From Ophelia neglecta (taxonomy: Eukaryota): 64,000 nucleotides of DNA. Positions within the stretch are counted from its first letter, which is position 1, and the number at the start of each line of letters is the position of its first letter. Both the position numbers and the translations under genes were made by a program. The notes beneath the pieces are model-generated. The model did not search any database. It was given only the letters and a program-made list of their open reading frames with translations, and had not been told where the DNA came from. Below are positions 24,696-57,977 of this stretch, in pieces. The stretch covers positions 73,718,001-73,782,000 of the forward strand of contig OZ260666.1 in the NCBI GenBank assembly GCA_965285935.1. Reading direction: 5' to 3'.

Positions 24696-26394
24696 CCAAT
24701 TACTCCAAAATTATGTAAACAAATAATTGCCCCTTTGGCTCCCATCCTTGCACGAATTTTTAATACAATGTTGACTTCAGGAATATTTCCAGAGAGCATG
24801 AAAATTGCAAAGATAATACCAGTGTATAAGAAGGAAGATCCCAGACAGTTTACTAATTATCGGCCTATTGCCATTCTTCCTGCTTTGTCAAAGATATTTG
24901 AAAAGATACTATATAATAGACTATACAATTTTTTTACTTCTAATAACATATTATATCCATCACAATACGGGTTTAGGATGAATCATTCCACTGAATACGC
25001 TACACACGAACTCGTTGACCACATAGCACAAAATTTAGACTCAAAAAGCAATGTAGGCGCAATATTCATCGACCTTACAAAAGCGTTCGATACCCTTAAA
25101 CATTCTATTTTGTTAAGAAAATTGTTCAATTACGGTGTGCGTGGCCTGCCTCTCACTCTACTTCAGAGCTACCTCACAAATAGGATGCAATATGTTCACT
25201 ACAATAATCATACATCATCTTCTAGTCCGATAAATTGTGGAGTCCCACAAGGGTCAATTCTGGGACCACTCTTCTTTATCATTTTTATAAATGATGTTAT
25301 AAACTGTCTTGATGAATCGATTGCAATTCTGTTCGCTGACGATACCAGCCTTGTTATTCAAAAACCCAATTTCCGTAGCCTTATACACACGATGAATCTT
25401 GAGCAGGATAAAATAAACAAATGGATGACAGCAAATAGTCTTATACTTAATATAAATAAAACCAAATATATTATATTTCAGAACCCTAACAGGAAATGCA
25501 CTGATGTAATGTTAAATGCTCTCTCCATAAATGGGACACAGATCGAACAGGTTCATGCATACAAATTCCTTGGCACCATCATTGATGAGCGCTTAAACTG
25601 GAGAGATAATATAACTCATAAATGCAATAAGGTATCTAAAATAATCGGTATATTAAATAGAATAAAAAACATCCTGCCTATTGATATACTTAAGGTAATC
25701 TACACATCTCTTATCTTACCGCACTTTCATCATGGTGTAACAGCCTGGTATAACCCTAACAACATGTCTTCTACGACTAGGTTGTTCAAACTGCAGAAAA
25801 AAGCTGTCAGAGTAATAACTAGATCTCATTACATCGCACACACTGACCCCATATTTAAGACATATAAGCTACTTAAGCTTCATGATATTTTCATACTTAA
25901 ATGTTTAAAAATCTATTTTGCTATCGTAAACAAATGTTGCCCAAGCTTTACTCTAAATTGTGTATCTTTAAAAGCTAGCAGCGTTCAGCCTTATAATACC
26001 AGAACCTTAGATGTAATTATCAGGAAAAACGCAAGAACGAATTATGGGAAACAATGCCTTTGGTTTAAGCTCCTGTTTTCAACAAATGAAATTTTGTATA
26101 AATTTAGGAAATCTTTATCAGGAAATACAGACTATAAATCAATCTTTCTCAGTGAATGCCAGACCACTTGCCATATACAGAATTGTTATGCATGTAATGC
26201 CTAGAACCTTTTATACTGCAATGGTAACAACTATTCAAACATTAATGTACCCATTACTTACAGCTCCACTATGAAAACTTTGTAACAAATCTATATAATA
26301 TCTTGATGTAAATCTCCATGCTTGACCGGGCGGCCAGTGCTTACAGCTTCGGCCATAGCTGGCGTCCGTAATAAAACGAATTCAATCAATCAAT
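24696..26394 (+). mobile_element. 5'-truncated non-LTR retrotransposon (CR1/L2 group, Crack/Daphne-like)
   Basis: RT reading frame open from ~24696 to 26204. The 3' UTR has a GC-rich stem-loop-like segment (~26326-26369), AATAAA at 26370-26375 and a (TCAA)n tail at 26381-26394. No endonuclease domain or ORF1. Confidence 0.92.
24735..26204 (+). CDS. LINE ORF2 fragment: reverse transcriptase plus C-terminal region (489 aa, no native start codon)
   Basis: RT motifs YRPIAILPALSKIFEK, QYGFR, FIDLTKAFD, GVPQGSILGPLFF, LFADD, KFLG; C-terminal CQTTCHIQNCYAC. Confidence 0.9.
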   Translation: MAPILARIFNTMLTSGIFPESMKIAKIIPVYKKEDPRQFTNYRPIAILPALSKIFEKILYNRLYNFFTSNNILYPSQYGFRMNHSTEYATHELVDHIAQNLDSKSNVGAIFIDLTKAFDTLKHSILLRKLFNYGVRGLPLTLLQSYLTNRMQYVHYNNHTSSSSPINCGVPQGSILGPLFFIIFINDVINCLDESIAILFADDTSLVIQKPNFRSLIHTMNLEQDKINKWMTANSLILNINKTKYIIFQNPNRKCTDVMLNALSINGTQIEQVHAYKFLGTIIDERLNWRDNITHKCNKVSKIIGILNRIKNILPIDILKVIYTSLILPHFHHGVTAWYNPNNMSSTTRLFKLQKKAVRVITRSHYIAHTDPIFKTYKLLKLHDIFILKCLKIYFAIVNKCCPSFTLNCVSLKASSVQPYNTRTLDVIIRKNARTNYGKQCLWFKLLFSTNEILYKFRKSLSGNTDYKSIFLSECQTTCHIQNCYACNA

Positions 26395-28900: not shown

Positions 28901-29069
28901 CTTCGTAGCCCTACTTCGTAGCCCTACTTCGTAGCCCTACTTCGTAGCTCTACTTCGTAGCCCTACTTCGTAGCCCTACTTCGTAGCCCTACTTCGTAGC
29001 CCTACTTCGTAGCCCTACTTCGTAGCCCTACTTCGTAGCCCTACTTCGTAGCCCTACTTCGTAGTCCTA
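28901..29069. repeat. 13-bp minisatellite (CTTCGTAGCCCTA)x13
   Basis: 13 consecutive units with only two single-base variants. Confidence 0.97.
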
Positions 29070-29886
29070 GACGAAATCATTCTAGAATTTCTATCGACGA
29101 AAATGCAAGTATAAATATAGTGGAATATCATTCGCAAAAGTTACCTGGACGCGTGAATCACACTCTTGACTGTGAATCCTTGCCTTATAGGATTCCTCTC
29201 ATGCCGCGTTCATCATTTTGATTTGGTTATTATTGACTTAACCGTGAAATGCTGCACTTGTTCGGTTTGCAGGGAGCTAGATTTGGTACATAACATCTTG
29301 CTCAGACGAATGAGTACATTAAGTGTTTTTAGAACTGGACTGAGCTTGTTTGACTGGAGGTTTATGTGAGGATTTTCTTCAAGATATTACAGGAAAGTAC
29401 ATTGCAAGCCTATATTAGGAAATTTGACAGGGTGGTATGAAAAAAAACATTCTATGGATGCTGAGTGCCGATTGCAGGAAATCACGACTGAGCGTCTAGT
29501 TTCGAAACAAATGCATTAAAGGTGAACTTACACAAAGTGAAAACAAATAATCAATTGTACATTTAAATAAAATCAGCTATTAGTAAATAAAGAGATATAG
29601 AGTACATTAAGAAAACCAGTCTCTCACGTAGCTTTATGTTATCATAGAAATCCTAGGCCAAATATTTCCAAGTTTATGGAACAGTCTCGTAACAGGTTTT
29701 CCGTTATATTCCTCGCATAAATTTGGTTACTTCCGCGCAGTAAGTAAACTTAATTTCACACAATGTTAGCGGAGTAAAGCGGCCTACTGCGCGGAATTAA
29801 TCGGTGCCTAAAATCCCCCGACTTTATTCTATTGCAAAAGCGACGAGCCTTTAAATCCGACAGGGATGAAGCTCTGTCAGGAGTCA

Positions 29887-30860
29887 GGAACTGCCATGTC
29901 ATTAGCTGACAATGAACTGCCATGTTATAAGCTTTCAAGGAAATGCCATGTTATAAGCTCTTAATGAAGTGCCATACCGTGAGTTGTCAATGAACTGCCA
30001 TGTTATTAGCTGTCAATGTACAGTCATGTCATAATATTTCAATGAAATGCCATACCATTAGCTGCCATTAGACTGCCATGTCCATATCTGTCAGTAGACT
30101 GCCATGTCATTAGCTGTCAGGAGACTGCCATGTTATTAGCTGTCAGTAGACTGCCATGTCATAAGCTGTCAGTAGATTGTCATGTCATTAGCTGTCAGGA
30201 GACTGCCATGTCATAAGCTGTCAGTAGACTGCCATGTTATTAGCTGTCAGGAGACTGCCATGTTATTAGCTGTCAGTAGACTGCCATGTCATTAGCTGTC
30301 AGTAGACTGCAATGTCCATATCTGTCAGTAGACTGCCATGTCATTAGCTGTCAGTAGACTGCCATGTCATTAGCTGTCAGTAGACCGCCATGTCATTAGC
30401 TGTCAGTAGACTGCCAAATCATTAGCTGTCAGGAGACTGCCATGTTATTAGCTGTCAGTAGACTGCCATGTCATAAGCTGTCAGTAGATTGTCATGTCAT
30501 TAGCTGTCAGGAGACTGCCATGTTATTAGCTGTCAGGAGACTGCCATGTTATTAGCTGTCAGGAGACTGCCATGTTATTAGCTGTCAGTAGACTGCCATG
30601 TCATTAGCTGTCAGTAGACTGCAATGTCCATATCTGTCAGTAGATTGTCATGTCATTAGCTGTCAGGAGACTGCCATGTCATTAGCTGTCAGTAGACCGC
30701 CATGTCATTAGCTGTCAGTAGACTGCCATGTCATTAGCTGTCAGTAGACTGCCATGTCATAAGCTGTCAGAAGTCTGCCATAACATTAGCTGTCAGTAAA
30801 CTGTCATTTAAGTAGCTGTCAGTAGACTGCTATGTTATTAGCTGTCAGAAGACTGCAATG
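29887..30860. repeat. 26-bp minisatellite (TAGACTGCCATGTCATTAGCTGTCAG), ~37 units
   Basis: Homogeneous core (~30070-30780) with degenerate ends; variant units recur at 312-bp spacing. Confidence 0.96.
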
Positions 30861-30929
30861 TGCACATCAATTGAAATAATCTCTCTTCATCTTACAATCT
30901 TTGTCGGTCTCTTATCGAATAAGGGAAGT

Positions 30930-40075: not shown

Positions 40076-40090
40076 GTTATTGATATCCAT

Positions 40091-40308
40091 GGCCGCGGTG
40101 TATGGAGTGTGGTGTATTGTGTATAAATGGCCGCGGTGTATGGAGTATGGTGTATTGTATATAAATTGTCTCGGGGTATGGAGTAAGGTGTATTGTATAT
40201 AAATTGTCTCGGGGTATGGAGTACGGTGTATTGTATATAAATTGCCTCGGGGTATGGAATATGGTGTTTTGTATATAAATGGCCTCGGGGTATGGAATAT
40301 GGTGTATG
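40091..40308. repeat. 38-bp minisatellite (GGCCKCGGKGTATGGAGTATGGTGTATTGTATATAAAT), ~6 units
   Basis: Direct tandem units; explains the repetitive ORFs 39965..40321 and 40021..40389. Confidence 0.93.
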
Positions 40309-43300
40309 GCATATCGACCATCGTTTGTCTGGATCAGATAAATTACAACTACAAACCGTTAATCTCCACATGCTGGATAATAGTGGCAAATATCAGGATA
40401 ATTAGCAAGACTCTCTGTATTTGCAACTACCGCTTATATGTGAAAAAGGGAGTACGGTAGACCATCGACCCGCTAGCCAGCGGGCATCCCCCGCGCAACC
40501 TTTAGCCGCAGTTGCCACTTCACCTGGTAGGCGTGAATGAGTCGTTTAAAATTGCCTTTCGTATTGATCAAGCATACCAAAAGCCTGATATGTTTTACCC
40601 TACCTCTGTCATTTCTAGACTTCCTGCCACGGCTGGTTGTGAAATTCACGAGTCTTTCCACAGTAGGGGGCGCTATGACAAGACTGTGTTAGTTCTCCCT
40701 TGGTTTGCTCGTTTATTACCCAATGTTAATGATCAATATTTTTCACATCGGTAGCAAGACACCAAACCTGTCGGTTCTTTATATTTACTTGAAAGAGTGA
40801 ATATTCACAGAAAATCCTGACTTTTTTCAAGGAGAACTTGACTCATTTCTAGGTAAAACCTACTCATTTTCACGTCAAAACTAATTCATTTTACTTAAAG
40901 CCTGGCTCTCCTGTCATGAAAATCTCTTAGACCGCCGAAAGGCGAGTTGTCGCTGTTGGCGTTGGATTATGAACCATGGAAGCATGAACCCCTTTGCAAT
41001 CTGCGCATGATCAGCTGATTAGACCGAGGCGCGCCCTGTAGCGCGCGTTTTCAAAACACTTATTCTATTGCTTCAAGACAAGGTGACGACCTCTAAAGGT
41101 TTTTCACTATCCAGTGGCAGGAAATACCATTCTTCCGAAGACAGCAGGTCATTCGATTTGTTTCCAACCTCGGCAGGTGTTACCATATCGATGTAACAAT
41201 TCATCTGTAAATCAGATTATTAAGCTAAGAACCTTATGGAAATTAACAATATTTAATAGAAATCTCATGTAGCCCGAAGTGCAATTGCACTTGGATGACA
41301 TTTTAACCGACAGCTTTCCAGGCACAAGGAGAAGGTAAAATATTGTCGAAATTATATAAGAATAAACGACACTCTTCATGAAAAAAAAACTGCAGTCTGA
41401 CTGACACTTGGAGGTGTAATGAACTATTAAATCATTTTTTGCCTTCAATTTTACGCTATCAGAAATATTGCTGTATCAACCAAAGGATTGAGTTTTCTGA
41501 TAAACAAAAAGAGACCGAAAACATCTCATATAATTTGAGATGCAACTAGCATACCAATGCATATATTAAACATAAGTTTTCCTTAACTAATCCTATCGAG
41601 ATAATCTGGGCCTAAGAGCTATTTTGGTCGAGTAGTAGCATGTCATAAACCAAACTGTATAAACTTGATCCTAACAACAGCCATAAAAGTTGAATAACTG
41701 GGTGTTGTCATAGTGATACATGGCTAGGACGAAGTCACATATGAATATGACTTAAATGGACGCCGGCTCATAAAACGTAAATTGTGCTGCCAAGGACAAA
41801 ATGACTTAGTAGAGTGACTAACACTAGCGAAGCCATGTAGACTTGAGGCAAATAAAATATTCAACGAGGCAGGACATTTAATAGACATTCGATCGCTTAG
41901 CCCGCCCACTCAGCAATCAAACAGCAACAGACAAGATCAAACATGGGCCATTCTTATCATGTGCTCTGTCCTAGTCACATGACCTATAGTAACTCACAAG
42001 GGGTGAAGGCCAGTAATTTCTTCTTGTGACTGAGAGACCAATTTATGTTAGAGACATGCTGTAAATAAAGATGACAGGATGAGAAACATCGGACAAGGCG
42101 AGGAATTCATTAGACAGAAGACCGGGCACGAGACAAATAATATTCATTTGCTCAGAAGAAGGACTTTATATACATGCTATGATTGTACGAGCCTCATCTT
42201 ATATAATCCCTGAATATGGATGTCAGGGGTTGGCTGTCTGGAGGTAGATGCATGGATGTGATGAGGGGGTCGCGTACATACTGTTTGGAGTTTGCGAATC
42301 AATTCACTGATAAACTGTTATTATTATATACCTTCAAGATGTGGTTCATCTTGTAATAAGATCCTAAACAAGGGAAACCATTTCTGTAACATCAAAAGGA
42401 TGTTGGTATGGCCTACCTACATAATTTCTCTAATGTAGGTACGAATTAGCATTCGTTTGCTGTGTAGCGGTTAATTGCTGCTAATGGAAACCAAAAATGA
42501 ATTATAGGGCATTCTGTAGGACGGAATGACTACGGACACATCAGATGGGGGTACTCGTAGCCCCAAACCTCCTTAACCTCCCGGCCCTCCCCTCAAAGCT
42601 ACAACATCTTCCTCAGTGACTGACGGAACATTGTTGGATTGTGTTACTAAGTCAGTTTGCCTTGACTATCTCTAGCTATTGATTACAGAGACTCCAGCCG
42701 CTCCATTATGTAAGACCCTATGAATATATACATACAATATATGGATTTTGAGGATTCCAATTACCTAATACCTGCCTTATCAATTCAAAGTGATTGGATG
42801 CATAGAATTGTTCTCCTGCCAAGCAGCTGGTCTGATATTTCTCTGATTGGAATCCCCCAGAAGCAAGCTTCTCTCTCTATCCATCTACATGTTCCTTTAT
42901 GGGGTGAACCTTGGCCTTATCAATAGGGTCATTCGGGGATGATGTAATAATTCTAGTTCAGCCTGCTAGCAAGGAGGTGACAGCACTGCATACCAATAGT
43001 CTGCACTTGAATGTGGAGCTAGACTACAGATTTGCAGCGGTTCCATGTTCATTGCGAAACCTGTAGCTATCACACAAATGTGAAATTTACCTGAATGGAA
43101 GGCCCTCTAAAATGTTAATCATCCCTGAAAGTTTTGTTTTGATTACTTCAACAAGCACTAAGTAAGGGCTTTTAAAACATCATTCCCATGTTAAATTCCC
43201 ATATGAACAGCTGAACGTAGCCCCACTAATCCCAGCCTTACCATTGCCTTTTAATTGCAATCAGCTTTGAAGGTGAGAAAAGTGGTTGTTCGTCAGCAGT

Positions 43301-43663: not shown

Positions 43664-44543
43664 TCTACCATCATACTTGATACACGTCCAACACAGCATA
43701 CAGAATACCGCAAGGTATTTCTACTCGTCCTTCACGGCATGCCGAATTACACAAGGTATTTTTACACGTCCAACACGGCATGCCGAATACCACAAGGTAT
43801 TTTTACACGTCCTACGCAGGATGCCGAATACATCAAGGTATTTCTACTCGTCCTTCACGCCATGCCGAATACCACAAGGTATTTTTACACGTCCAACACA
43901 GCATGCCGAATACAACAAGGTATTTCTACACGGCCAACACAGCATGCCGAATACCGCAATGTATTTCTACAGGTCCTTCACAACATGCCGAATACCGTTA
44001 GGTATTTCTAAATGCCCAACACAGCATGCCGAATTTCACAAGATATTTCAACACGGCCAACACAGCATGCCGAATACCGTAAGGTATTTCTGCACGGCCA
44101 ACACATCATGCCGAAAACTGTTTGGTATTTCTACACGGCCACCTCGGCATGCCGAAAACCGTTAGGTATTTCTACACGTCCAACACAGCATGCCGAAAAC
44201 TGTTTGATATTTCTACACGGCCAACACAGCATGCCGAAAACCGTTAGGTATTTCTACACGTCCATCCCAGCATGCCGAAAACCGCATGGTATTTCTACAC
44301 GGCCATCACAGCATGCCGAATACCGTTAGGTATTTCTACACGTCCATCACATCATGCCGAAAACCGCATGGTATTTCTACACGTCCAACTCGGCATGCCG
44401 AATACCACAAGATATTTCTACACGTCCAACACAGCATGCCGAAAACCGTTAGGTATTTCTACACGTCCATCACAGCATGCCGAAAACCGCATGGTATTTC
44501 TACACGGCAAACACAGCATGCCGAAAACAGTTAGATATTTCCA
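43664..44543. repeat. 41-bp minisatellite (CATGCCGAATACCACAAGGTATTTCTACACGTCCAACACAG), ~21 units
   Basis: CATGCCGAA recurs every 41 nt (e.g. 43738, 43779); generates overlapping periodic ORFs in all three + frames. Confidence 0.96.
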
Positions 44544-45545: not shown

Positions 45546-46018
45546 TCACGTCGCGTTGTATTGTGGGATAGTAGAGAACATAGCAACCAGAGAGCCTATA
45601 CTGGAAAACAGAAATAGCCAGAAGAATATTTTGTCCACACATTTTGCCAAGGTACGCCATTCCAATTCGCGTCTGTCCATATGCTCGAGGTCAAGAGCGG
45701 AAGGTTGTTTAGAAACATTACTTCTCCTCATGGAGTTATTACACACATTGTTACGATGTGACGTCAACCCTTCAATTTCACTTAGAATGGAAAGGTTATC
45801 CAGTTCTATTTCCGGTAATTTGACCTCGTTCACGTGGTTCTCTGCCATGGTGACCTTGTTAGTCAACGAGTCGCGTCTGGACCTCGTTTTGAGACAGAGT
45901 CTGCGCAGGCAGGTAGGAACTCTATGGCCAGAGTCTTTTCGCAGGAATATATTGGTAACAATCACTGCCATTACTAAGGCTATAGATACCATGATCATAG
46001 TCAATCCAAACAGCATAC
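45546..46018 (-). CDS. nAChR-like gene, exon 8 (M3, intracellular loop, M4, stop)
   Basis: TTTGTTCCAG|GT ATG; M3 MLFGLTMIMVSIALVMAVIVTNI; MA/M4 EWRTLAKCVDKIFFWLFLF; TGA at 45546-45548. Confidence 0.95.
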
Positions 46019-49000
46019 CTGGAACAAAGATGGGAATATATCTGAATATTAAATATCAGGGTGACACTCAACACGTTACCAAAGCAGTATAACATGGCAA
46101 CTATCTTGATAGATAGACATATACCGAGAATTCGTGTTTTGGATTGAATAATAGTTATAAAATTTTCGTAACCAAGAGAGTTGTCATAATATTGATCACA
46201 CCGGAAATGTATGTTTCACATTCCTTAAGTATACACGTAGTTATCAAGATTTCGTTACATTTAGTGAGTTGGCTGAAGTTGCAGCATATTCTCTCTTACA
46301 TTTGTAATTCATATGAACTTTTTAAATTCAGCCTTATCCTGCTCTACTTTCTTTTTATATAGCTCAATCACACGTTCCTTTTTGGTAGCGTTTAGTTTTT
46401 TATTTCAAAGAGATGACTCTCTTTTACAATCGTCAGTGCTAGAATTTGCATTCCAACTGTATCCGATTATTGTTATGACTACGTACCTAGAGCGGGAATA
46501 GCATCAGGGGTGGGCGGTAAGGTCTCTCCCACTATCAACAGAAATACTACTAGCGCCAGTAGTATTGTAATCTCCAAATTCACCTTCTCGCCGCTCTCTA
46601 CCGGAAGAAAAAAGCCTAGGAAAGACACGGCGTAGATCAGTAGGCAAGGAAAAATAAGGTTAATGATGTAAAACAGGGAGCGGCGTGTCATGTGAATAGT
46701 GAAGGTCACATCCGGGTAGGGTTCAGGGCAGCAGGCGTATATCTTCTCGTGTCTCTCAACCGTCACCTGCAATACAAAGAGTAAAAGTAAGAGACTGGAG
46801 ATGAAATGGCATATGCCGAATGTCTGGCAAGGCTAGGGATCGGGTTAGCTCATCTCTTCACAGTTGCTACCAATGTAAATTATATAAGATAAAGGTCAAC
46901 ATCGTTTAGCACTGTACCTGTTCGACATAATAGTGTTTTAGAAATGAAGTATAATGTGCTGTATACAAGTTGTCACTTTCCCGCTACTACTTGGCTTTAG
47001 GGATGTAGTAAAGAAGTTTGAAAGCATAGTAGTTTAGATAGCATAAACGATAAGTAGTATATGCCTTTTAATTCGCTCTTTTCGTAACTGACTAAGCCAA
47101 TTGTAATACATCTTAAGAATATGTGACCCGTTGTGGTGTAATTAATACGTTTGGAAGCATAGTAGATTACATGACATGAATGTTAAGTAGCAAAATATAA
47201 GGTTCCTGGTCTACATACCACGCCAGGTTTTCAGGAGGGTAGCATATGGCTAGATGGTCGTTCTCGTTGTTACCTACATTTACATTATGTGTATAAAGCA
47301 AGCATTCTATTTGTTATGTTATTAAGTATTATGTAAGGTACCTGGTCCACATACCACTCCTGATTTTTTGGAGTGTAGTATATGGCTTGATGTTCGCTTT
47401 CGTTGTATGTGACGTTCAATTTAAGTCCATTGAAGGTCCAACTAATAAAGACGATGTTGCATTTCTGTCGATCGAATGGGAAGTGCCGAACGTCCAGCGT
47501 GCAATATGTCTTCACCACGGCCGGGAACATCCACAGCACCTGGAGAAAAGTAAAATACTCCAAGTGACAATAGTGGAAAGGGGAATTATATGAGATGATA
47601 CGAGAAAAGTGCGTTAAATCGGTCAGGAACTATCGGCAACCAGCAGCCACAGTCCCACACACATCTACAACCAACGTCGCGCATCCAAACAGCAAACAAA
47701 CTTGCACTGCAATTTATAATTAATAAAAACACCAACTTGATATAACTTGCAATGAGAAGCAATCACCAGTTTTCTACAATCCGGGTCAGAACACAAAACC
47801 AAAAGGTCAGAGGTCAAAGAAGGATAGAGTTGAAGATTATTCATAATATATGGTTAAAAAAAAATAACATTGCCGCCATGCCATTTCGAAAGCCACAACA
47901 GCCAATGTTTGTATCTAGATGGCATGAATCAAAATATGTTTTGGAAATATGCTATTGTTAGTTATTGCATTTATATATCTTTCCCGACCTTATTAACTTA
48001 TGAAGGATGATGTAGAAAGGATATGGCCTCTAAGGCCAAATGTAGCTGGTTGTAGTATGCCCGAATGTAAATAATGCTCTCTTCAGACGACTTATTCAGG
48101 AAAGATATATCTTTTAGTCGCAAGACCAAGTTGGTTTTATCAAAACTAAGAACAATTTTTGCTTTGCATAGATCTTAATAATTTTATATTTCTTAATGGA
48201 TATTAGAAATTTGCTTTTCCTTCAGTCTTGTGTGCTTGACAGAATATAACAAAAAGCCGTATCTAACAAGACAGTATATACGATCACTATAGACTGTTGG
48301 AAATATGATTTCCTTCCTGCCTATCTATATGTATCTTGATATTTGTATGGCCTACCTGTCCGTTGGACGAGATGATGGCAAAGGTGTCCATAAAGTCCTT
48401 AAAACTATCGTCGGCACTGGAAAGGAACAAAGGAAGGGAAATACAATATATGACTATGTCTAAAGCCATAAACAAACATTTGTATACTCTGTGATGTTCA
48501 CATCAGTTTTGAAAAGCATAGTCGCTTGTCTTATTTTGTGCGTTTTGGTGTAAAAAAGAAAATTGACTTTGTTTCAGGCTTTTTGGACTTTTTTAGTGTG
48601 TGCCATTTCATTTTAGAGTCACTTTTTTTTGGCTGAAAATAAAGTAGTTTTAGACCTTGCGGTCACAAAGTTGTCCAGATTTCATTTAAATTCTGGATAT
48701 AAGTACCTTGTGGTGTTTGCGTAATTTCGATAAAAGGTTTGCTTGCGTTTATTTCAAGTTATGTCATTTCATTTGCGTAAAAAGCGTATATTCAACCTCA
48801 AAATCACGATGACATAGAATATTGATTTTATTGATTTGATGTGGCCTGTGTTTGCTTAAGTCTTGTCAATTGCCATCTAAGTCATCTTATGCTTATGTAC
48901 CCCAGTTAGGTCATACAGTTCGAGGCGATGCTCCTTGGCCTGTTTCATTGCCACTCCGGTTCAGTCTGTGACAAGAGGTGATCCAATCAACTAAGGTGGC

Positions 49001-52000
49001 CTTGCAGACATCACAGCTCGTGGAAGCAGTGCAATGCGCTCCTCCACACTTCTGCAGTTTTATATTTTTTCCATCCCAGGATAATGTACATGATTTTGGG
49101 TTCCCCTCTAAACGTTTCATGAGTTGCAAGTTGTAAGCTCTAAGCTGGATGTGAAAAGTTTTCCCTGCTGAAGGCAAAATCTGACACCTTCTCGTGACTA
49201 GCTTTCTTTACTGCAGTGAGAATGACAACTGTTAAGAATGGCAAGTGTAAGGTCTGGAATCTCAAATTGTTACTTCACAATAACCTTTTGGTTTATATAG
49301 AACATATAGTCCCTATCCCAATTTGGCGGCATAGTCAAACGTACGCGTAACCTTAGCTGATCCTCATTCCTATCTACCATATCACAAAGCTCATTAAGCA
49401 TCGCATTGTACTAAACATATTTAGGAGATCCTCTGCTGCACGAATTTGCATTAGCTGATGGTTCAGGACATAAATAAGGTTGTGATATACAGAATCGTTC
49501 TCTTACTTTATGGCAAAATTTAGCTTTTCCTACACGTCTGCCATCTCTGCATGAATCTGCGTTGCAAAGTTACTTACTTGGGTTGATTGTGGCAGCTAAG
49601 CTTTCAGAGAACTATACCTCTGCATAATCATGTTGTGTGTTGGCAGTCGATCTGATCAGATTCAATCTCATTCATTGACCCAACCAGTCAGGGACATTTT
49701 TCCACACCAGAGCGCACAAAATATGAACAAGAGAGCATGACATTGAAAATAAAATGAGCATTATTTGTGAATTACAACTAACCTCCTGCCGTTTCCAACG
49801 TTAAAAACAGATGGTTTATCAACGTAGTTCGGACAGTAAGTGATGCAGCCAGCAATACGCCTTTGACAACGTGTTGTATATATAGTGCAACACACGAAAT
49901 GGGTATCATTCCGATAACATTGTTAATGAACGAGAATATTCCATTTAAGTTGCAAGAATCACCAGGATTAGCTGGTTGCTATTATGTAAATAACCAGCAA
50001 CGCAACAACCCTAGTGCGATCGTCGCTAAGCAGGTGAGGGCTATTTATAAAACTAGTAATTTTACCAGTATTTTGTTATTTTGAAAGAACTACCGTTTTA
50101 AGGTTTTGACCGCTATGGTCATAAATAGTATAGAAACAAAGATGATTGTGATGATTGTGATTGTCTTACAAATTGTTGATGAAGATGTCTGGGGTCCAGA
50201 CGAGTAGGGCCGGGATCCAGATCTTATCCACACCCCCGTACTCCTTCTCATCCCACGTCAAGTACTCGTCCATCCACCGCTAGACGGAGACACACAGAAA
50301 GACAATTGATCATTAAACAGGTACACATTTCAGTAGGAAGTCTAGACATATAATTTCATTCCTTCAGATCGTGCACGAAAACATGTTCCTTTACGATTGC
50401 AGTTCTCGAACGTTTGCGTATTTAAGCTTAGCATTGAGATACTTATTTGGATAAAACATAATTCATTGCAGAGGGGTAGTTACATTTTATACTTAAGGCA
50501 GAGGGGACAAATCTGAGCCTAAGTAAGGGAATCGTTTTGGGCACGAGTAATTATCACTTAACTTTGTATTTGTGCCTTTGGAGGGCCTTTTTATGCAGCT
50601 AATAACAATTCGTATAGAATCATACAAAACATTCCTCGGTGACCGAATAAGCAAGAGGCGTGCCACACTTGAGGTTTTTGTAGATTTCCCAAAGGGAGAT
50701 TTTTCCGCTGCTTAAACTTGGTTGGCTTCCATCTATCTCTTCAGCACCGTGTGAGGCAATGTGTAATTCACCAGGCAATGAGGCCAAAACGTGGAGAGAC
50801 AAGAAAAGATGCTCGGCAAAATTACCTGGTTAACCGTAAATTCAATTGCCAAAAGCATTCTCATAATGCATTTGTGGTTGGAATCACTTCGCTAGCAAGC
50901 ATAAATACCGCCATTATTCTCTTACTAAAAGACACATTTGTCCATTCCTAGATTGCTGTGCTTAAACTAGTTCAGCAAAAATTGCTGGTTTCATTTCTTC
51001 TGTAAATCCCATTCTCATCTACAAAGCCTGATTGCGAACGGCCATTGTGACCTTATTGTAAAACACATTGATCAACGAAAGGCTTTTTTTCTAAGGCGAT
51101 TACTCGATTACCCAAAAATCCATCGGCACAATAGCTCGAGTTTAATCAAAACATTCTGTCCTTATCAATAAGCTTGAATTGTTATTTAAATAATGAGAGA
51201 GGTTTTCTCCAGAAAACACGCACAATCGAATTAGGTGTCTCGAGGGCATATGTATCATCTGTTTAGAAGCCACGACTAACTTGAACAGACAGGTAGAGGA
51301 TAGTCGTTACTTCTCATGCGTGATGAACAAAATTAGCCAGATTTTACACTTAAACAGGCACCATGAATCACGGAAACTGGTTCAATCTTAAGGCTTTGTG
51401 TTAACGGAGAAACCCAAGCTTCGGCGAAAGCCGCATGGCCTTTTAAATTGAGCAAATATGAATTAAATAATAACCCTACCCTAACCCTTTTATATCAAAA
51501 ACAAAATGGACTTGTCTGGCTAAGGGTTGGGTTATAAAATAACTGATATTTTAGATTATTGTGTCACCAATGCTGCTTTCGCAACAGCTCCCGCTTTCGC
51601 CGTTAATACAAAGCCGGGGCTAATTGTAAAACACGGATAAGGATGTCCAGTCCGCTGGCTGGAAGGTTTCCCCCTTTCCCCCGTACTACTGTTTCTAACA
51701 GTGGCCCCAACCCATGAGTCCAAGGGACATGAAACACTAGTGTTTTAGGTCCGCCTGGGTGTCGTATCCCTAGAATAGCAGGACTGTGGTTTGGAAATCC
51801 TGGTTGATAACGTCTCCCTGTCGCAATACATTGGTTTTCTAACGTCCATGGGGCCTTTATTCCTAGGGTTATGAGTCTGAGGGACCATTCAGCCAGGGGA
51901 CCAATTAATCTTATACACCAGCAGTCAATGCAAGGTCGTTCATTAAGATTACTAAATACAACTGGTTCGAAATCCTCGGGAACACTCAACTGCAGGCCCA

Positions 52001-55000
52001 CAAACATCAATCCCCAGTGTTCGGTTTCTGAAATCCCCACCACCCCTCCCAACCAAACCTCCACCCGACCCTACAGGATTATAGTGCTTAATCAATCTTA
52101 ACTTGCTAATCGGGGTTTCTGACAGCTGGATTTGGTCTTAAACCTGGTCATTGTGGCCTTAAATCTAATTCTGGTCAACGGAAAACCGATCAACGCGGCC
52201 TCACCTAAACGGTAATAGGCCAATCTAATCCCTGTACTTAAGCTCGCTTCCATAGATCGGTTCCACTTCTCTCAGTTAATTGCTTCTTTTATTGCCCGGA
52301 TGTTAAATGTTCATTATGTGAAATAATATTTAAAGGTTCTTACCAGCCTGACAGCTATGAGGGCGGACAAAGTTTGCATCTTTTCGTTCTGAAAACACAG
52401 AAGCAAATTAAAGTTGTTACTATGGGACAACGAACGTGTTGACCATTTCAACATTCAATATCCTCAACTGGATGCGACTATTCCATTTTAGACGGACAGT
52501 TGTGGTGAAAGAGGTTAAGTTATATATGTTTGTTTGTTTTATTGCATAAAGGATAAGGCCATAGGCCCTCGACCTTACAGTGGAGTCGAAAAATTGCACA
52601 CAGTCACTGTGCATATTCACAATAATAGCAGTAACATGGCCACCAGTAAACATACTATATAAAGAACTTAAATTACTCTGGACAGAAGTCTACAAACAAT
52701 GGATTATAGTTGTAAGTAAATACTACATTAGATGTTGACAGATTTCGCAACCCAATTTATGAATTCTTTGGGCACTACAGGGTCTCAAAAGAAGTCCATT
52801 TGTGATTAAGGAGTGGCCTCAGTTCCCATACGGAAGCAGTTTGTAGGTAAATTATGTATCTAAACATTACTAGTAAATTTGGGATTGGACTTTGAAATAA
52901 ACGAAAAAAAAAGTGAGTGGACCCATCGAAATCAAAACAAAATCGGTAATCAAGAAATTCCATAAATTTTGGAAATATGCATCAAAAAACACTCATTAGG
53001 AGCCCCACATAATTCCACCCGATGATGAAACACACTCGGAGAGTCTATGATGTAATTATCCATCAAATAAACCTGAGCATGTAGCTGGGAAAATCACCTG
53101 CCTAATTATAATGGAACCATAGGGGTTTAATGGGCTCTTATGAAACATGTATGAGTTTGGTCTGATATGACCCCATCGCCTAAAGGCGTCTGAAATTTAT
53201 CAGTGTGGAAATATAATATCGGAGGTAAAACAAGCGTTCTGGGCCTGAAATCTATACCCATGCGGTAAAATGGTCTTGTTGCCAGACGTACAAATTTGTC
53301 ACGCTTAGAACGCCTGTTATACCTTCGGTAATATCGTAGCTCATACGAGTTATACAACCCCGTGGTACCCCCAATGACTGGCACTATTTGCTTGATAAAC
53401 AATACTGACCGTGTCCAGTATATGATAGAGTGACATTCCTATGTAAACTGTTGTTTCTGTGCTGTCATTGCGGACGGGCCGGATGTTTTTCTCATAATGT
53501 AAGAGTATTTTCTGTTTAATTCTGTATTCGTATGAGTATCCCTCCATGTTTTTCGCAGGACTCATGCCACATCCGGGTCGCTTGACCATTTTCCTACGGC
53601 CGCCTTTTGAAGATGATCTGGAGGTCCCTCTGAGAGATCTGGATGGGAAGTCAGCTTGCATCATGTCCATCCCAATATCCTCTTCCTCCTCATCTTCCTC
53701 ATCCGGGTAGTTATCCTCGTATTCCTCCGCGTTTTCTAACTTTATGTGGTCTCTATCACCATCAGGCACACGAAATAGTCCCCTCTCAATATTGTTCACA
53801 TCGTCGGTTTTATACCTATCATTTTTATGACGAGTCTTTGTAGATGGCGCATGCGCAAGAGGCCTATATGCTGTACTGCCGTCGATATCTGGCCCACGGT
53901 CTCCTTTGAGGTGTTTTACTGTATGGTCACTGGGTGGCGCCACCTGTTTAAAAGATTTACTAGATGTCACCGTATTACTGATATGGAGATCCTCTGATTC
54001 AGTGATGTCATCGTTTTGGGGCGGCACTTCCGATGTTTGCGAGTCTCGGTAACCGGGCCTTTCTACGCGCATGTCTTCAGGTGCAGTTGTAGTAGTAGTC
54101 GTTGATAGTGTAGTGGATCCTCCGCCATCTGTACAGTGCAGGAGAACTGGAAGAAAGAAATATAAGAACTTATCTCAATTGTCACCACGAAACAGACAGC
54201 AAACCTCACTGTCCAATGCCATTTGATAAAGTTGAAAGTGACGTGTAAGTCCTTGCAATATTGCGATAATCTCGAACGTTTTTTGACAAATCATTAACAA
54301 CCAGAAGAAAAACTGGAATAAATTTAAGAAAATGAATAAAATGGCGTAGCAACTTGCCACAATGATATCATGAGTTTTTAAATCATAACAGAGAAAAAGA
54401 CAGTAAAACATACAAGTTGTGGGACCATTGTCCTAGACTGATAAAAATATAATTGGCAATTTCCAATTTTAATTCTATTCCAATTTTCAGCAAATTTGAC
54501 AAGTGCTGTCTTGAAAGCAACTTATTAAACATGATAGCAGCAGGCACGAACGCTCAGCGGTGAATCAGTTCTTCTAAACCTTTTCTCCTCGTGCAAATAC
54601 CTTGGTTTACAGTGTTTTTGTTGTCACAAACGGTCATCAGTCTCCCTAAGAAATATTCGGACCCTTCGTAATACCAATAGATATTCAAACACGAAACCAA
54701 TTGCCTGATATTTATTATTTTGTCTTGACCCCGGTGTGATCAATTCTTCTATCAGACATTCCCATCTTTGTTCGAGTTAAGATTGATTGCTGACAGTCTT
54801 GCCGGATTCAGAGGTTTGGGGTGAAAGGTGCCAGGACCTCCACGTTTGTTTTTCAATGGATAATGCTAGTCGTAGATATTGTTTGATGGGTGTCTCCTAG
54901 ATTGGGTCAGCGGATATAGACAAATCCTCACCTCATGGAGATGACATTAGGACAGTCATCATACAAACTAGTCCAGCTACCTTAAGGACTGTGTAGGAAG

Positions 55001-57977
55001 AAAACCAAGTCCTGACTTCTGTGACCCCCACCCAACCATCAGTTACTAGTGTCACCCTGACTACAACCACCAAAACCCCGTTGCCATTCTTCCGGATGGA
55101 AGGGTCTGGGAGGGGGTCACTTCCCCTCATACCCTCCACATTGAAACCCTATACGATTTTTAAGATCAAGCCTAGATCTGCCAGTAGGCGGGGCTCGCAT
55201 ATATCTCAGGTGGCCTCGATTAAATAGGAAATAAAAAAGGCAAAACACGTGCGAAATAATGATTTAACGACATAAGGTCAGGTTAAACGACACCAGGCTC
55301 ACTAGACCGGAGTAAATTTAAGTTCAAATAATTGGTAAATTGGTCAGAATGGACAAGTTGGTTTTTGAACGCTCTGTGATAAGCCAGTTATATTACTTTT
55401 CGTCTGGGGGCAAATAAATGTAAACGAGAGTTATCATATTCGGCAATGAGCCAACCTGTTTTAACTCTTTTAAAAAGTATTTAAAAAACGAGTGGAAGAG
55501 CCGAGCGAACATTTGTGAATCATGACTAGTATGCGATTTTTTTATTTCTCCGATAACAAACTACGGTCGACAAATCACATTGCAAAACGCTCTTATGACA
55601 AATGACGGTCGACCAATCACAGGACAAAACAGGTCGATAAAAAACGACGGCCGACCAATCACAGGACAAAGCCATTCGATTGCGAAGGACGGTTAACAAT
55701 AGAAAATAAAAATCGTGTTTTCAGTCTTAACATGGTTTTGCCCTTTAACTATAAATAATCACAAAAGAAGCTTTGAGGTTTTCACTTTACCTTTTTGCCT
55801 GAGGCCCAAGGACAATTGGGACATTTAGACTAAATGTACGCATCATGGAATTTATACAAATGGGCAGCCGCTGATTTGACCCCACTGACATATAGTGTTA
55901 AAAACTAATTCAACTGCGAGATCTGGGTACTATATTCATATATCTGTGAATTAAACAAAAACGTCTGTAAGCGGATGAATCGATAAACAACTTGATGACA
56001 TTTAGAACCAAGTGAAAAAGAACAAGAAATACCATTCTTCACAGAGTGGCACCGTCTTTCTCCAGGGCCCTGACTGTCATTGCTTAAAGCCTATGTTTGT
56101 TTGCCAAGTGTCCATTGATGTTTTGTTCTTATCGAGTCACCGTCCTTCGAGGTCTAATCTAACCTCAGCCCCACCCCGCCGACAAAACAAATAAAAGCAA
56201 ATAGAAAACCAGAGAGTCAAATGTCGACTTGAGATTGAGCGATCACACCCGCATACCAATCAGCCCCCGGCTGACTCACAGCCGGGAAGTCAGACCGCTG
56301 TTCAGCTGGCCGGCAGCTCCAGTATCCCACTGCAGTGTTCTGGAAACTTAGAATCAAAGAGGCAGGGTAAAGTCTGGGTATTTTGCGCATCGTTTAGTAG
56401 CATAAGAAGAAAGTCGCCTTATTTCGTTTAGTAAGTATACTACTCTGTGCATAAGTTGCGCGAAAAAGCCTATTTTTTTGGGCGGAATTGTCTTATGGAA
56501 AGGCTGAAGAGGGCAAATGTGAGATGTATTTGTACAGATAAGATTTTAATACGGCCACGAAATAAGCAGCTCCAGGGTGAGGGGAGAGTGAGGGGAGAGA
56601 GAGAGAGAGAGAAATAAATAGAATTGTTAATACTTTAACATAAGTTATGTAACTTATTATATCATAGATGGATGTAGGGTAGGATGGAGGAGATAGGCAG
56701 GAAGTTTAGGGGTCGATGTGGGAGTAGAAACTGTCCCCTCCCAGCCTCCCCTTTAAGGCACATTGATCGTTGTCTATTGTTTCCGGACCCGCCCTTCGAT
56801 ACCACTCGTATTGTGAGTCACTGACCGGGCGATATGCCTTTGGTTAATTGGCACCAGGACCTGACAGGTCAGCCACCCTCGTCTCTCACTGTCAGAATCA
56901 CCCAAGAACTGTGGATGGGCAAGTCTGTGGTATTATCTCAGCCCGGCGGCACAACTGAACATTGCGTGGAATCGGCGGGTTAAGCGATATCAATTACCGG
57001 CTACAGCCGTGTAGTCAGCTTTGGGGAGACTATACGGGTATTAGATGACCTCTTATTGTTCCATCCGTATCATAAAACTAGATCACTGACCAACGCATGT
57101 TACCCTAGTGTGTCTGCCCCTCAAACAGCTGTGTCATCATCACTTTGTCACTGGCCCATTTGCCGCTGACATCATCGAATTATCTATTGTCAGGATTCTT
57201 GGTAGAGAGGTACGTGTAAGATCCGTGGCCGGGGGAGGGGATAGTGTGCGCTCAGGCGTTTTGAGATACCTCATTGTCGAAAGGAAACTAGTAAACTAGC
57301 CACAAAGTTAAGTTTCTTCAAACCGCTTTGGACGAAATGACATCCCATCAACAACTTGGTTCCACGCATTGACTGCCACTGCTGCTTTCTGACTGACCTC
57401 CCCAACCCCCCCCCCTATCACGCCCCATCGCAATATTTAATTTTTGATAATGCATGCCGGTATTCGTGCAACAGCATCGTAATGTCATTAAATAACGTTT
57501 CACAAAATAGCCATGGGCAACACATTCATGTTATTTACTCGATAACAAATAAACAAAGAAAGTTATTTCTGGTGGTTTCTCTGGATGCTACCGTATTGGT
57601 GATGTTTATGATGAATATAATACCAAGGGTTTCCTCTAAAGTAACATTTGCAAAGTTCTATTAAAAAATGGATGGAAACTTCCTACGAATAAATGCAATT
57701 CAAAGCCTTATTAATTGTATGAGTTGCATGCATATGCCACTTTGCAAATCATAATACACTTAACGATCAGGGGATCCATTGACCACCCTAACATTGAAAT
57801 ATTTAATATTCATATGTGAATTATTTTGTTTTCGTTTGAAGGATAAAAAGTATGTCTCACTACATGATGGCTGAAAGTTTGTCTTATCAAGTGTTTAACA
57901 ATTTCAGATATGTTAGTAAACATTTGAACATTACCTTGTCCAAATGCCATAAGCCATAATGTTTTCTTAAGAGACAT
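45546..57977 (-). CDS. Cys-loop ligand-gated ion channel, nicotinic acetylcholine receptor alpha-type subunit (alpha7/alpha9-like), 8 coding exons, 648 aa: join of complement(57935..57977, 53410..54146, 52344..52388, 50170..50279, 48356..48416, 47342..47539, 46487..46766, 45546..46018)
   Basis: Exons assembled by hand; all introns GT..AG with matching phases (1,0,0,2,0,0,1); total 1947 nt = 648 aa + TGA. Motifs: helix EYRIKQKILLHYEKNIRPV, WMDEYLTW, WTPDIFINN, Cys-loop C-x13-C (CTLDVRHFPFDRQKC), SWTF, loop C YACCPEPY, M1-M4 with PVESGEKV and AKCVDKIFFWLF. Confidence 0.95.
46487..46766 (-). CDS. nAChR-like gene, exon 7 (loop C, M1, M2)
   Basis: GTATTGCAG|GTG...CTA G|GTACGT; encodes YACCPEPYPDVTF, RRSLFYIINLIFPC and PVESGEKVNLEITILLALVVFLLIVGE. 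Confidence 0.96.
47342..47539 (-). CDS. nAChR-like gene, exon 6 (Cys-loop, loop B)
   Basis: TTTTCTCCAG|GTG CTG TGG...GAC CAG|GTACCT; encodes VLWMFPAVVKTYCTLDVRHFPFDRQKCNIVFISWTF...EWYVDQ. Confidence 0.95.
48356..48416 (-). CDS. nAChR-like gene, exon 5 (61 nt, (F)ADDSFKDFMDTFAIISSNGQ)
   Basis: TTCCTTTCCAG|T GCC...CAG|GTAGGC; its phase-2 start completes TT|T (Phe) from exon 4. Confidence 0.92.
50170..50279 (-). CDS. nAChR-like gene, exon 4 (110 nt, RWMDEYLTWDEKEYGGVDKIWIPALLVWTPDIFINN)
   Basis: CTCCGTCTAG|CGG...AAT TT|GTAAGA; the 110-nt exon typical of nAChR genes, with WxD and WxPD motifs. Confidence 0.95.
52073..52264 (-). mobile_element. MITE family A copy in nAChR intron 3 (left end missing)
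   Basis: TCTTAACTTGCTAATCGGGGTTTCTG...GCTGGATTTGGTCTTAAACC...GGTAATAGGCCAATCTAATCCC is the reverse complement of the 22075 copy. Confidence 0.75.
52344..52388 (-). CDS. nAChR-like gene, exon 3 (45 nt, NEKMQTLSALIAVRL)
   Basis: TGTTTTCAG|AAC...CTG|GTAAGA; the 45-nt exon typical of nAChR genes, aligning to DEKNQVLTTNIWLQM. Too short for the ORF track. Confidence 0.93.
53410..54146 (-). CDS. nAChR-like gene, exon 2 (737 nt: end of signal peptide, long N-terminal extension, N-terminal helix)
   Basis: Acceptor TTTCTTTCTTCCAG|TT; open frame shared with ORF 53350..54072; ends ...SLYHILDT ACG|GTCAGT. Confidence 0.92.
55562..55700. repeat. ~41-bp tandem repeat (3-4 units, GACGGTCGACCAATCACAGGACAAA) inside a probable Kolobok-like element ending CCCTTTAA (55748)
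   Basis: Direct repeats near 55563, 55603 and 55646, with a TTAA-type terminus downstream. Confidence 0.55.
57935..57977 (-). CDS. nAChR-like gene, coding exon 1 (signal peptide MSLKKTLWLMAFGQ)
   Basis: ATG preceded in frame by TGA TAA TAT. Ends CAA G|GTAATG (phase 1), matching the phase-1 start of exon 2 and giving the signal peptide MSLKKTLWLMAFGQVLLHCTDG. Confidence 0.75.

What the first reader, a model, noticed from the sequence alone, without database searches (positions are those of the whole stretch)
46716..52388. Remodelled agonist pocket: loop A Tyr to Asn and loop D Trp to Ala, with loops B and C intact
Seen: loop A reads WTPDIFINNFAD against canonical WxPDIxLYNxAD (Asn codon at 50175-50177). 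The loop D exon reads NEKMQTLSALIAVRLRW against alpha7 DEKNQVLTTNIWLQMSW (Ala codon at 52353-52355). Loop B (SWTF) and loop C (YACCPEPY) are kept. Established: TyrA, TrpB, TyrC1, TyrC2 and TrpD form the aromatic cage for acetylcholine, and nAChR-derived channels with altered cages respond to other ligands (cephalopod chemotactile receptors; nematode DEG-3-family choline and betaine receptors). Inference: this may be a nAChR-derived channel gated by a non-ACh ligand, a chemosensory channel, a toxin-insensitive variant, or an obligate heteromer partner.
Basis: partly seen in the sequence, partly recalled or inferred. Interest (0 to 1): 0.75.

Follow-up and report, generated by a model that had tools for sequence, protein, structure and literature searches.

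The report
Worm receptor clade with rebuilt pocket
This is an intact nicotinic-type ion-channel gene from an old group, found in annelids, ribbon worms, a brachiopod and a flatworm, in which two of the five acetylcholine-gripping aromatic residues are lost and neighbouring pocket positions are changed throughout the group, so it likely opens to a small molecule other than acetylcholine, which has not been tested.

Summary
A minus-strand gene with seven located exons encodes an open 633-residue alpha-type nAChR-family subunit. It has Asn at alpha7 Tyr93 and Ala at Trp55, with Trp149, Tyr188, Cys190-Cys191 and Tyr195 kept.

This is not a quirk of one gene. It belongs to a 17-row clade (100/100 support) from annelids, an orthonectid, nemerteans, a brachiopod and a flatworm. 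Position 55 is Ala/Ser in 16 of 16 readable rows and position 93 is Tyr in 0 of 17. Two further pocket-facing sites are fixed: Tyr/Phe38 and Ile147, next to an invariant Arg57.

Alpha7 and alpha9 mutant data predict poor acetylcholine responses. Best reading: a conserved cation channel gated by another small amine, possibly a zwitterion (0.45). Main rival: a principal-face-only partner in a heteromer (0.28). A lineage-specific toxin-resistance variant is unlikely. Kinship to 5-HT3 is unresolved (AU p 0.54). No ligand or expression data exist here. Orphan lophotrochozoan nAChR-like subunits are known, but my searches found no description of this clade's pocket.

The parts
57935..57977 (-). Candidate first coding exon (ATG plus 14 codons, phase-1 donor) that would complete a 22-residue signal peptide; unproven
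   Evidence: Sixth of 33 candidates by hydrophobicity score; preferred by eye for its AAG|GTAATG donor and two basic residues after Met. No RNA evidence.
53410..54146 (-). 737-bp exon: end of signal peptide, about 200-residue low-complexity Thr/Asp/Glu-rich extension with a basic cluster, helix alpha1, beta1 (loop G Tyr38)
   Evidence: AG/GT ends and open frame; 0 of 5000 shuffles of the 607-bp extension part were stop-free; weak Neur_chan_LBD match at its end, E 0.00095, below the Pfam cut-off
52344..52388 (-). 45-bp exon, loop D: Leu53, Ala55 (codon 52355-52353), Arg57
50170..50279 (-). 110-bp exon, up to loop A: Asn93 (codon 50177-50175)
48356..48416 (-). 61-bp exon, end of loop A and start of loop E
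47342..47539 (-). 198-bp exon: loop E, Cys-loop, loop B (Ile147, Trp149), loop F
   Evidence: PF02931 E 3.5e-15
46487..46766 (-). 280-bp exon: loop C (Tyr188, Cys190-Cys191, Tyr195), M1, M2 (-1' Glu, 2' Asn, 4' Glu, 13' Val, 20' Glu)
   Evidence: PF02932 E 1.1e-15
45546..46018 (-). Last exon: M3, 93-residue intracellular loop, M4, stop codon
   Evidence: PF02932 E 2.1e-9

Best explanation
An intact alpha-type Cys-loop subunit of a conserved spiralian clade that has lost TyrA and TrpD and fixed other residues around the site; it likely forms a cation channel, alone or with its sister paralogs, that is likely gated by a small amine other than acetylcholine. Shown: gene structure, clade, residue pattern. 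Inferred: the amine or quaternary ammonium would still sit among Trp149, Tyr188 and Tyr195 under loop C. Ile147 and Tyr/Phe38 would re-tile the space left by Tyr93 and Trp55. With a small residue at 55, Arg57 would be exposed to the ligand's tail, which favours a zwitterion with a carboxylate or sulfonate (betaine-, glycine-, GABA- or taurine-like; about 0.2 for this class on its own). Cation selectivity is inferred from -1' Glu, 13' Val and 20' Glu (rule recalled).
For: Clade of 17 rows, 100/100, stem 0.87. Position 55 is Ser 10, Ala 6, gap 1, against Trp 191 of 231 other domains. Position 93 is never Tyr, against Tyr 179 of 231. Only 7 of 231 others lack an aromatic at both. Position 38 is Tyr/Phe in 16 of 16 readable rows (5% elsewhere) and 147 is Ile in 14 of 17 (Gly 167 of 231), and Ile in 55 of 58 readable loop B sites among 70 short clade-type proteins. 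In a GluCl the residue two before the loop B aromatic, the loop D Arg, and the loop G Arg 19 residues before it all govern agonist recognition (PMC4338433 section 5); the same spacings fall on 147, 57 and 38 here. AChBP Gln55 equals GluCl Arg56 (PMC4006026). Human alpha7 Y93C does not respond to 3.16 mM ACh without a modulator. W55T in both alpha9 and alpha10 gives no current at 30 mM. Fourteen pocket positions are more conserved in the clade than the extracellular domain overall (0.82 vs 0.57, p 0.001). Every paralog readable at these sites lacks both residues, so heteromers within the clade would not restore the cage.
Against: No ligand, current or expression data. Arg57 is not derived: 97 of 231 other domains have it, including ACh-gated alpha9 and alpha10. 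Tyr38 also occurs beside an intact Trp55 in DEG-3 and 5-HT3A, so it need not be compensation. Alpha7 W55G shifts ACh potency only 6.5-fold and raises efficacy. The closest named relative (Owenia P0018) has Phe at 93. The complementary face alone is only marginally more conserved than background (0.77, p 0.046), and the pocket figure includes residues conserved in all alpha subunits. Betaine binding in ACR-23 uses no arginine. Spatial closeness of these residues is taken from other receptors, not from a model of this protein.
Confidence: 0.45

Rival explanations
1. A principal-face-only alpha subunit (or structural subunit) of a heteromeric ACh receptor. A partner from another subfamily supplies Trp55, and loss of TyrA lowers potency.
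For: The loop D aromatic is absent in alpha isoforms that give only principal faces (PMC4006026). Loops B and C are intact. Three Alvinella nAChR-like subunits gave no current alone, and heteromers were proposed (PMC4801368).
Against: It does not explain the loss of Tyr93 and the fixed Ile147 on the principal face itself. The complementary face is still fixed at 38, 53, 55 (small only) and 57, though interface packing could also cause that.
Confidence: 0.28
2. A spiralian relative of 5-HT3 receptors, gated by serotonin or another aromatic amine.
For: Mouse 5-HT3A has Tyr at 38, Arg at 57, Ile-Asn at 92-93, Phe at 95 and a non-Gly at 147 (N128 = loop A Tyr and R92 = loop D Gln in PMC3537142). 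FastTree put two fish 5-HT3A-like domains as sister, 0.88. They share 7 of 25 clade-diagnostic states, the most of 231 (mean 1.45). The AU test does not reject the union (p 0.54).
Against: The essential loop A Glu129 is Asn in 17 of 17 and Trp90 is absent. Loop C keeps the vicinal cysteines. The mixture-model tree did not recover the pairing. Identity to the fish domains is no higher than for other nAChRs (0.268 vs 0.276 and 0.269 vs 0.268). Two other divergent rows share 6 of 25 states. Only two 5-HT3-like rows, both on a long branch, were available. The PDB search ranked alpha7 first, with no 5-HT3A in the best 60.
Confidence: 0.1
3. Still an ACh or choline receptor of ordinary or millimolar potency, because Tyr38 and Ile147 rebuild an equivalent cage.
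For: Three of five aromatics and the vicinal cysteines are kept. Alpha7 W55G remains ACh-gated. Choline-gated DEG-3 (ligand recalled) also has Tyr38.
Against: Alpha7 Y93C is silent and double W55T alpha9alpha10 is silent. Ile cannot replace the TyrA hydroxyl or ring (inference).
Confidence: 0.1
4. A peripheral chemosensory channel like the cephalopod chemotactile receptors.
For: Precedent in molluscs (as summarised in PMC10338036). The 200-residue N-terminal extension is unexplained.
Against: No large expansion among hits (1 to 4 named copies per species). Short branches within the clade. No named mollusc protein falls in the clade. Kept in the parasite Intoshia.
Confidence: 0.05
5. A recent toxin-insensitive variant in this lineage.
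For: Both residues contact nicotinic ligands (W55 noted as an alpha-bungarotoxin contact in PMC5325082).
Against: The same losses occur in annelids, nemerteans, a brachiopod, a flatworm and an orthonectid, so they predate these phyla.
Confidence: 0.02

Closest known systems
Vertebrate alpha7 and alpha9/alpha10 nAChR subunits
   Same: Best PDB match of the Owenia relative is alpha7 (282 bits). Cys-loop, TrpB, TyrC1, vicinal Cys, TyrC2 and a GEK-type M2 are shared. Arg57 and a non-Lys at 145 are shared with alpha9.
   Different: Tyr93 and Trp55 lost; Tyr/Phe38, Ile147, 2' Asn and 4' Glu fixed; loop F differs with a Tyr-Tyr motif; identity to the window core 43% or less for all non-clade rows; not nested in either group.
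5-HT3A receptor
   Same: Tyr38, Arg57, Ile92-Asn93, Phe95, non-Gly 147, charged 4' residue
   Different: No loop A Glu129, no Trp90, loop C of the alpha-nAChR type, 4' Glu instead of Lys
Nematode DEG-3/DES-2 and ACR-23 (choline and betaine receptors)
   Same: nAChR-derived cation channels with a non-ACh agonist; DEG-3 shares Tyr38
   Different: ACR-23 keeps all five aromatics and binds the carboxylate through Cys224 and a water; DEG-3 keeps Trp55
GluCl, GlyR and GABA-A amino-acid agonist motif
   Same: Arg at the loop D position that binds the carboxylate
   Different: These are anion channels with Tyr/Phe in loop B and a loop C Thr; here TrpB, a nicotinic loop C and a cation-type M2
Alvinella Alpo1-4 and other lophotrochozoan orphan nAChR-like subunits
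   Same: Annelid, orphan, nAChR-like
   Different: Alpo4 keeps loop D Trp65 and lacks the vicinal cysteines. Alpo1-3 sequences were not seen, so identity with this clade is untested; the Alpo2 and Alpo3 families include molluscs, which this clade's named hits do not.

Membership tests
Cys-loop pLGIC, cationic branch | Neur_chan_LBD plus Neur_chan_memb, 13-residue Cys-loop, four TM helices | tested here: met
Cys-loop pLGIC, cationic branch | Cation-type M2 sequence (-1' Glu, no Pro-Ala ring) | tested here: met
   -1' Glu 16 of 17, 13' Val 16, 20' Glu 16; the rule is recalled, ion selectivity itself not measured
nAChR alpha subunit | Vicinal cysteines in loop C | tested here: met
   17 of 17
Canonical ACh site (alpha7/alpha9 type homomer) | TrpB, TyrC1, TyrC2 | tested here: met
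   Window has all three; clade Trp 17, Tyr 16/Phe 1, Tyr 14/Phe 3
Canonical ACh site (alpha7/alpha9 type homomer) | TyrA (Tyr93) | tested here: not met
   Asn in the window; Tyr in 0 of 17
Canonical ACh site (alpha7/alpha9 type homomer) | TrpD (Trp55) | tested here: not met
   Ala in the window; Ala/Ser in 16 of 16 readable
alpha7 or alpha9/alpha10 ortholog | Groups with alpha7-like or vertebrate alpha9/alpha10 subunits | tested here: inconclusive
   Separate 100/100 clade on an unresolved backbone; a sister relation was not tested by AU
nAChR (functional) | Gated by acetylcholine | not testable with these tools
   needs electrophysiology
5-HT3 receptor | Loop A Glu129 and loop D Trp90 | tested here: not met
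   Asn 17 of 17 at the Glu position; no Trp
5-HT3 receptor | Loop A Asn128, loop D Arg92 | tested here: met
   In the window protein; Arg 16 of 16 readable, Asn only 2 of 17 in the clade
5-HT3 receptor | Phylogenetic grouping with 5-HT3 | tested here: inconclusive
   FastTree yes, IQ-TREE no, AU p 0.54; two rows only
DEG-3 family (ACR-23, DEG-3) | Full aromatic box including TyrA and TrpD | tested here: not met
Cephalopod chemotactile receptors | Phylogenetic grouping with CRT1/CRB1 and sensory-cell expression | not tested
   No CR sequence was held for the tree; no named mollusc protein fell in the clade

The most novel reading that the evidence does not exclude
An unrecognised, pan-spiralian class of excitatory Cys-loop receptor: a nicotinic-type cation channel that has taken on carboxylate-style recognition through an unmasked loop D arginine and opens to a zwitterionic transmitter or osmolyte, or that is the protostome sister of 5-HT3/ZAC still carrying an alpha-type loop C.
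Probability: 0.25. Interest if true: 0.8.

Novelty: new variant of a known kind. Interest (0 to 1): 0.5.

Why it matters
Lophotrochozoans carry many nAChR-like genes of unknown ligand, and most divergent ones are lineage-specific expansions. This clade is instead old, low-copy among my hits, and kept even in the reduced parasite Intoshia, with a fixed alternative pocket. That makes it a well-defined target for finding a fast transmitter or modulator other than ACh in annelids and their relatives, with specific residues (38, 55, 57, 93, 147) to test. If the 5-HT3 link held, it would bear on the open question of where 5-HT3 receptors came from.

Tried and rejected
No whole genome is held, so paralogs and partner subunits in this species could not be listed. 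No RNA holder was listed, so splicing, the first exon and expression are unverified. Polymorphism in the N-terminal extension was not read base by base; one search shows no indel listed inside that exon. The AlphaFold model of P0018 was poor (mean pLDDT 60.8, many binding loops under 50); its Foldseek hits (alpha1, alpha7, 5-HT3A at rank 49) only confirm the fold and were not used for the pocket. The ESM Atlas gave only generic Neur_chan_LBD clusters. The first multiple alignment, with fragments, misaligned loop A and was redone on rows spanning loop D to M2. Arg57 as a derived carboxylate clamp was downgraded because alpha9/alpha10 have it. Sisterhood with 5-HT3 was neither confirmed nor rejected. 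Earlier findings of the scan: none by sequence or words. PMC7441323 (spiralian-specific genes) has no receptor or channel terms. The annelid and orthonectid '5-HT3 homologs' in supplement 1 of PMC9977066 do not include the Capitella, Helobdella or Intoshia members found here. No complex prediction was run, since Cys-loop subunits would pass by likeness.
Full report
Observation. The finding lies in a minus-strand gene with seven located exons: 54146-53410, 52388-52344, 50279-50170, 48416-48356, 47539-47342, 46766-46487 and 46018-45546. All junctions are AG/GT and the spliced frame is open for 633 residues to a stop. The Owenia relative P0018 aligns without gaps to human alpha7 through loops D and A, and the multiple alignments place the window's Ala and Asn on Trp55 and Tyr93. 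Contigs of runs X1 and X2 cover both codons without a listed difference (one sample, possibly the source). A first coding exon is not proven; 57977-57935 is my preferred candidate of 33. The species is unknown. Its nearest named protein is from the annelid Owenia (95/91), so an annelid is likely (inference).

A clade, not a one-off. Three word-index searches and one full HMMER scan gave 324 proteins. Of these, 228 (247 domains) spanned loop D to M2 and were aligned; the other 96, mostly single-exon fragments, were dropped from the residue counts. FastTree on all 248 rows gave a 17-row group holding the window protein (0.99). IQ-TREE with a C20 mixture on 59 of these rows, chosen by me to cover the groups, gave 100/100 and a stem of 0.87 changes per site, on an unresolved backbone. 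Named members are Owenia (3), Helobdella (2), a cluster with Lamellibrachia and Ridgeia, Intoshia linei, Lineus, Tubulanus (2), Lingula and Macrostomum (3); P0022 and P0064 are unnamed. Partial proteins from Capitella, Dimorphilus, Paralvinella and a fourth Macrostomum copy carry the same M2 but were too short for the tree. No named mollusc protein fell inside; the searches are not exhaustive, so absence is not shown.

The pocket (alpha7 numbering; 17 clade rows against 231 other domains). Position 55: Ser 10, Ala 6, gap 1, against Trp 191. Position 93: Ser 10, Thr 3, Asn 2, Phe 1, Gln 1, against Tyr 179 and Phe 17. Only 7 of the 231 lack an aromatic at both. Kept: Trp149 17, Tyr188 16 (Phe 1), both cysteines 17, Tyr195 14 (Phe 3). 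Newly seen: Tyr/Phe at 38 in 16 of 16 readable rows, Leu53 in 14, Arg57 in 16 of 16, Ile147 in 14 (Gly in 167 others), and in M2 Asn at 2' (16) and Glu at 4' (17; 16 of 231 elsewhere). Ile147 also stands in 55 of 58 readable sites among 70 short clade-type proteins. Fourteen pocket positions average 0.82 pairwise conservation in the clade against 0.57 for 205 extracellular columns (p 0.001). The seven complementary-face positions alone give 0.77 (p 0.046), and position 93 is the least conserved at 0.36.

What the changes likely do. In human alpha7, Y93C is silent to 3.16 mM ACh unless a modulator is added, while W55G shifts the EC50 only 6.5-fold and raises efficacy (PMC4560414, passages). In rat alpha9alpha10, W55T in alpha9 shifts it 60-fold and in both subunits abolishes currents at 30 mM (PMC5325082, passages). 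A homomer lacking both residues would therefore likely respond poorly to ACh, though these are mutants in other backgrounds. In a nematode GluCl, the residue two before the loop B aromatic, the loop D Arg and the loop G Arg 19 residues upstream all control agonist recognition (PMC4338433, passages and section 5). The same spacings fall on 147, 57 and 38 here, and AChBP Gln55 is stated to equal GluCl Arg56 (PMC4006026, passages). So the clade's fixed changes sit where ligand choice is made in other Cys-loop receptors. I infer a rebuilt site rather than a decayed one: amine held by Trp149, Tyr188 and Tyr195, tail facing Arg57 once Trp55 is gone. Against this, Arg57 is present in 97 of the 231 others, including ACh-gated alpha9/alpha10, and Tyr38 occurs with an intact Trp55 in DEG-3 and 5-HT3A. 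The M2 sequence is of the cation type (rule recalled).

Rivals. A non-aromatic loop D residue is normal in alpha subunits that give only the principal face (PMC4006026), so a heteromer with an outside partner is the main rival; it leaves the principal-face changes at 93 and 147 unexplained. A link to 5-HT3 is suggested by shared states with mouse 5-HT3A (N128 and R92 equivalences in PMC3537142, passages), by the FastTree placement, and by two fish 5-HT3A-like domains sharing 7 of 25 diagnostic states, the most of 231. But two other divergent rows share 6, overall identity is not raised, the mixture tree does not recover the pair, and Glu129 and Trp90 are missing. The AU test leaves it open (p 0.54, constrained tree 1.44 log units better). 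A recent toxin-resistance origin is ruled out by the spread over four phyla. A chemosensory role cannot be tested without expression data, but no expansion was seen.

Comparison with what is known. Orphan nAChR-like subunits with altered sites are established in lophotrochozoans: only 13 of 33 oyster alpha subunits keep all principal-site residues (PMC6896357, passages), and Alvinella Alpo1, 2 and 4 gave no currents (PMC4801368, passages). Alpo4 keeps its loop D Trp and lacks the vicinal cysteines (PMC10338036, passages). Five searches aimed at this clade (listings only) showed no paper describing it. I also saw passages of PMC6543705, PMC9977066 with a term search of its supplements and PMC8634148, and a term search of PMC7441323 with no hits. 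The tree of 649 annelid and mollusc sequences in the figure supplement of PMC10338036 samples Capitella, Dimorphilus, Owenia and Helobdella and probably holds this clade as a numbered family; I could not see it, nor the alignments of PMC6896357 and PMC4801368. Most subscription papers are not searched.

Specific to this gene. About 200 low-complexity residues precede helix alpha1. The conserved RPV motif lies at residue 221 of the partial protein, against 23 to 94 in the 12 of 14 relatives examined that show it. The stretch is unlikely to be open by chance (0 of 5000 shuffles). Its role is unknown.

Verdict. This is a new variant of a known kind: a conserved spiralian orphan clade with a consistently rebuilt agonist pocket. 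The ligand is unknown, and the heteromer reading remains a serious alternative. Interest 0.5.

Noticed in passing
window 53540-54146 (-): About 200-residue Thr/Asp/Glu-rich N-terminal extension ending in a basic cluster, much longer than in the relatives examined; several relatives have short basic-rich extensions at the same place. Possibly a propeptide or glycosylated stalk.
   Followed up: partly
window 47540-48355 and 46767-47341: Two phase-0 introns that are absent in relatives: 36 of 70 short clade-type proteins read straight through both sites and then run on into the next intron, as gene calls on genomic DNA do.
   Followed up: partly
window 47155-47282 (-): Degenerate tandem copy of the 3' part of the loop F exon and its donor inside the next intron, with the GT changed to GA (score 126, shuffle maximum 60).
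   Followed up: partly
window M2, exon 46487-46766: Glu at the 4' and Asn at the 2' position, fixed in the clade; 4' Glu also occurs in some mollusc alpha9-like subunits and 5-HT3A has Lys there.
   Followed up: no
P0189: The orthonectid Intoshia linei, a highly reduced parasite, keeps a member of this clade.
   Followed up: partly
window 24696-26201 (+): 502-codon open frame with a reverse transcriptase domain (RVT_1, E 5.8e-35), a LINE-type retroelement remnant by inference.
   Followed up: no
window 43681-44525, 29883-30861, 40078-40314, 28901-29069: Minisatellite arrays with periods 41, 26, 38 and 13.
   Followed up: no
window 51420-52322: Very high-copy repeats in the intron between the loop D and loop A exons (summed contig depth up to about 40,000 against about 28).
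   Followed up: no
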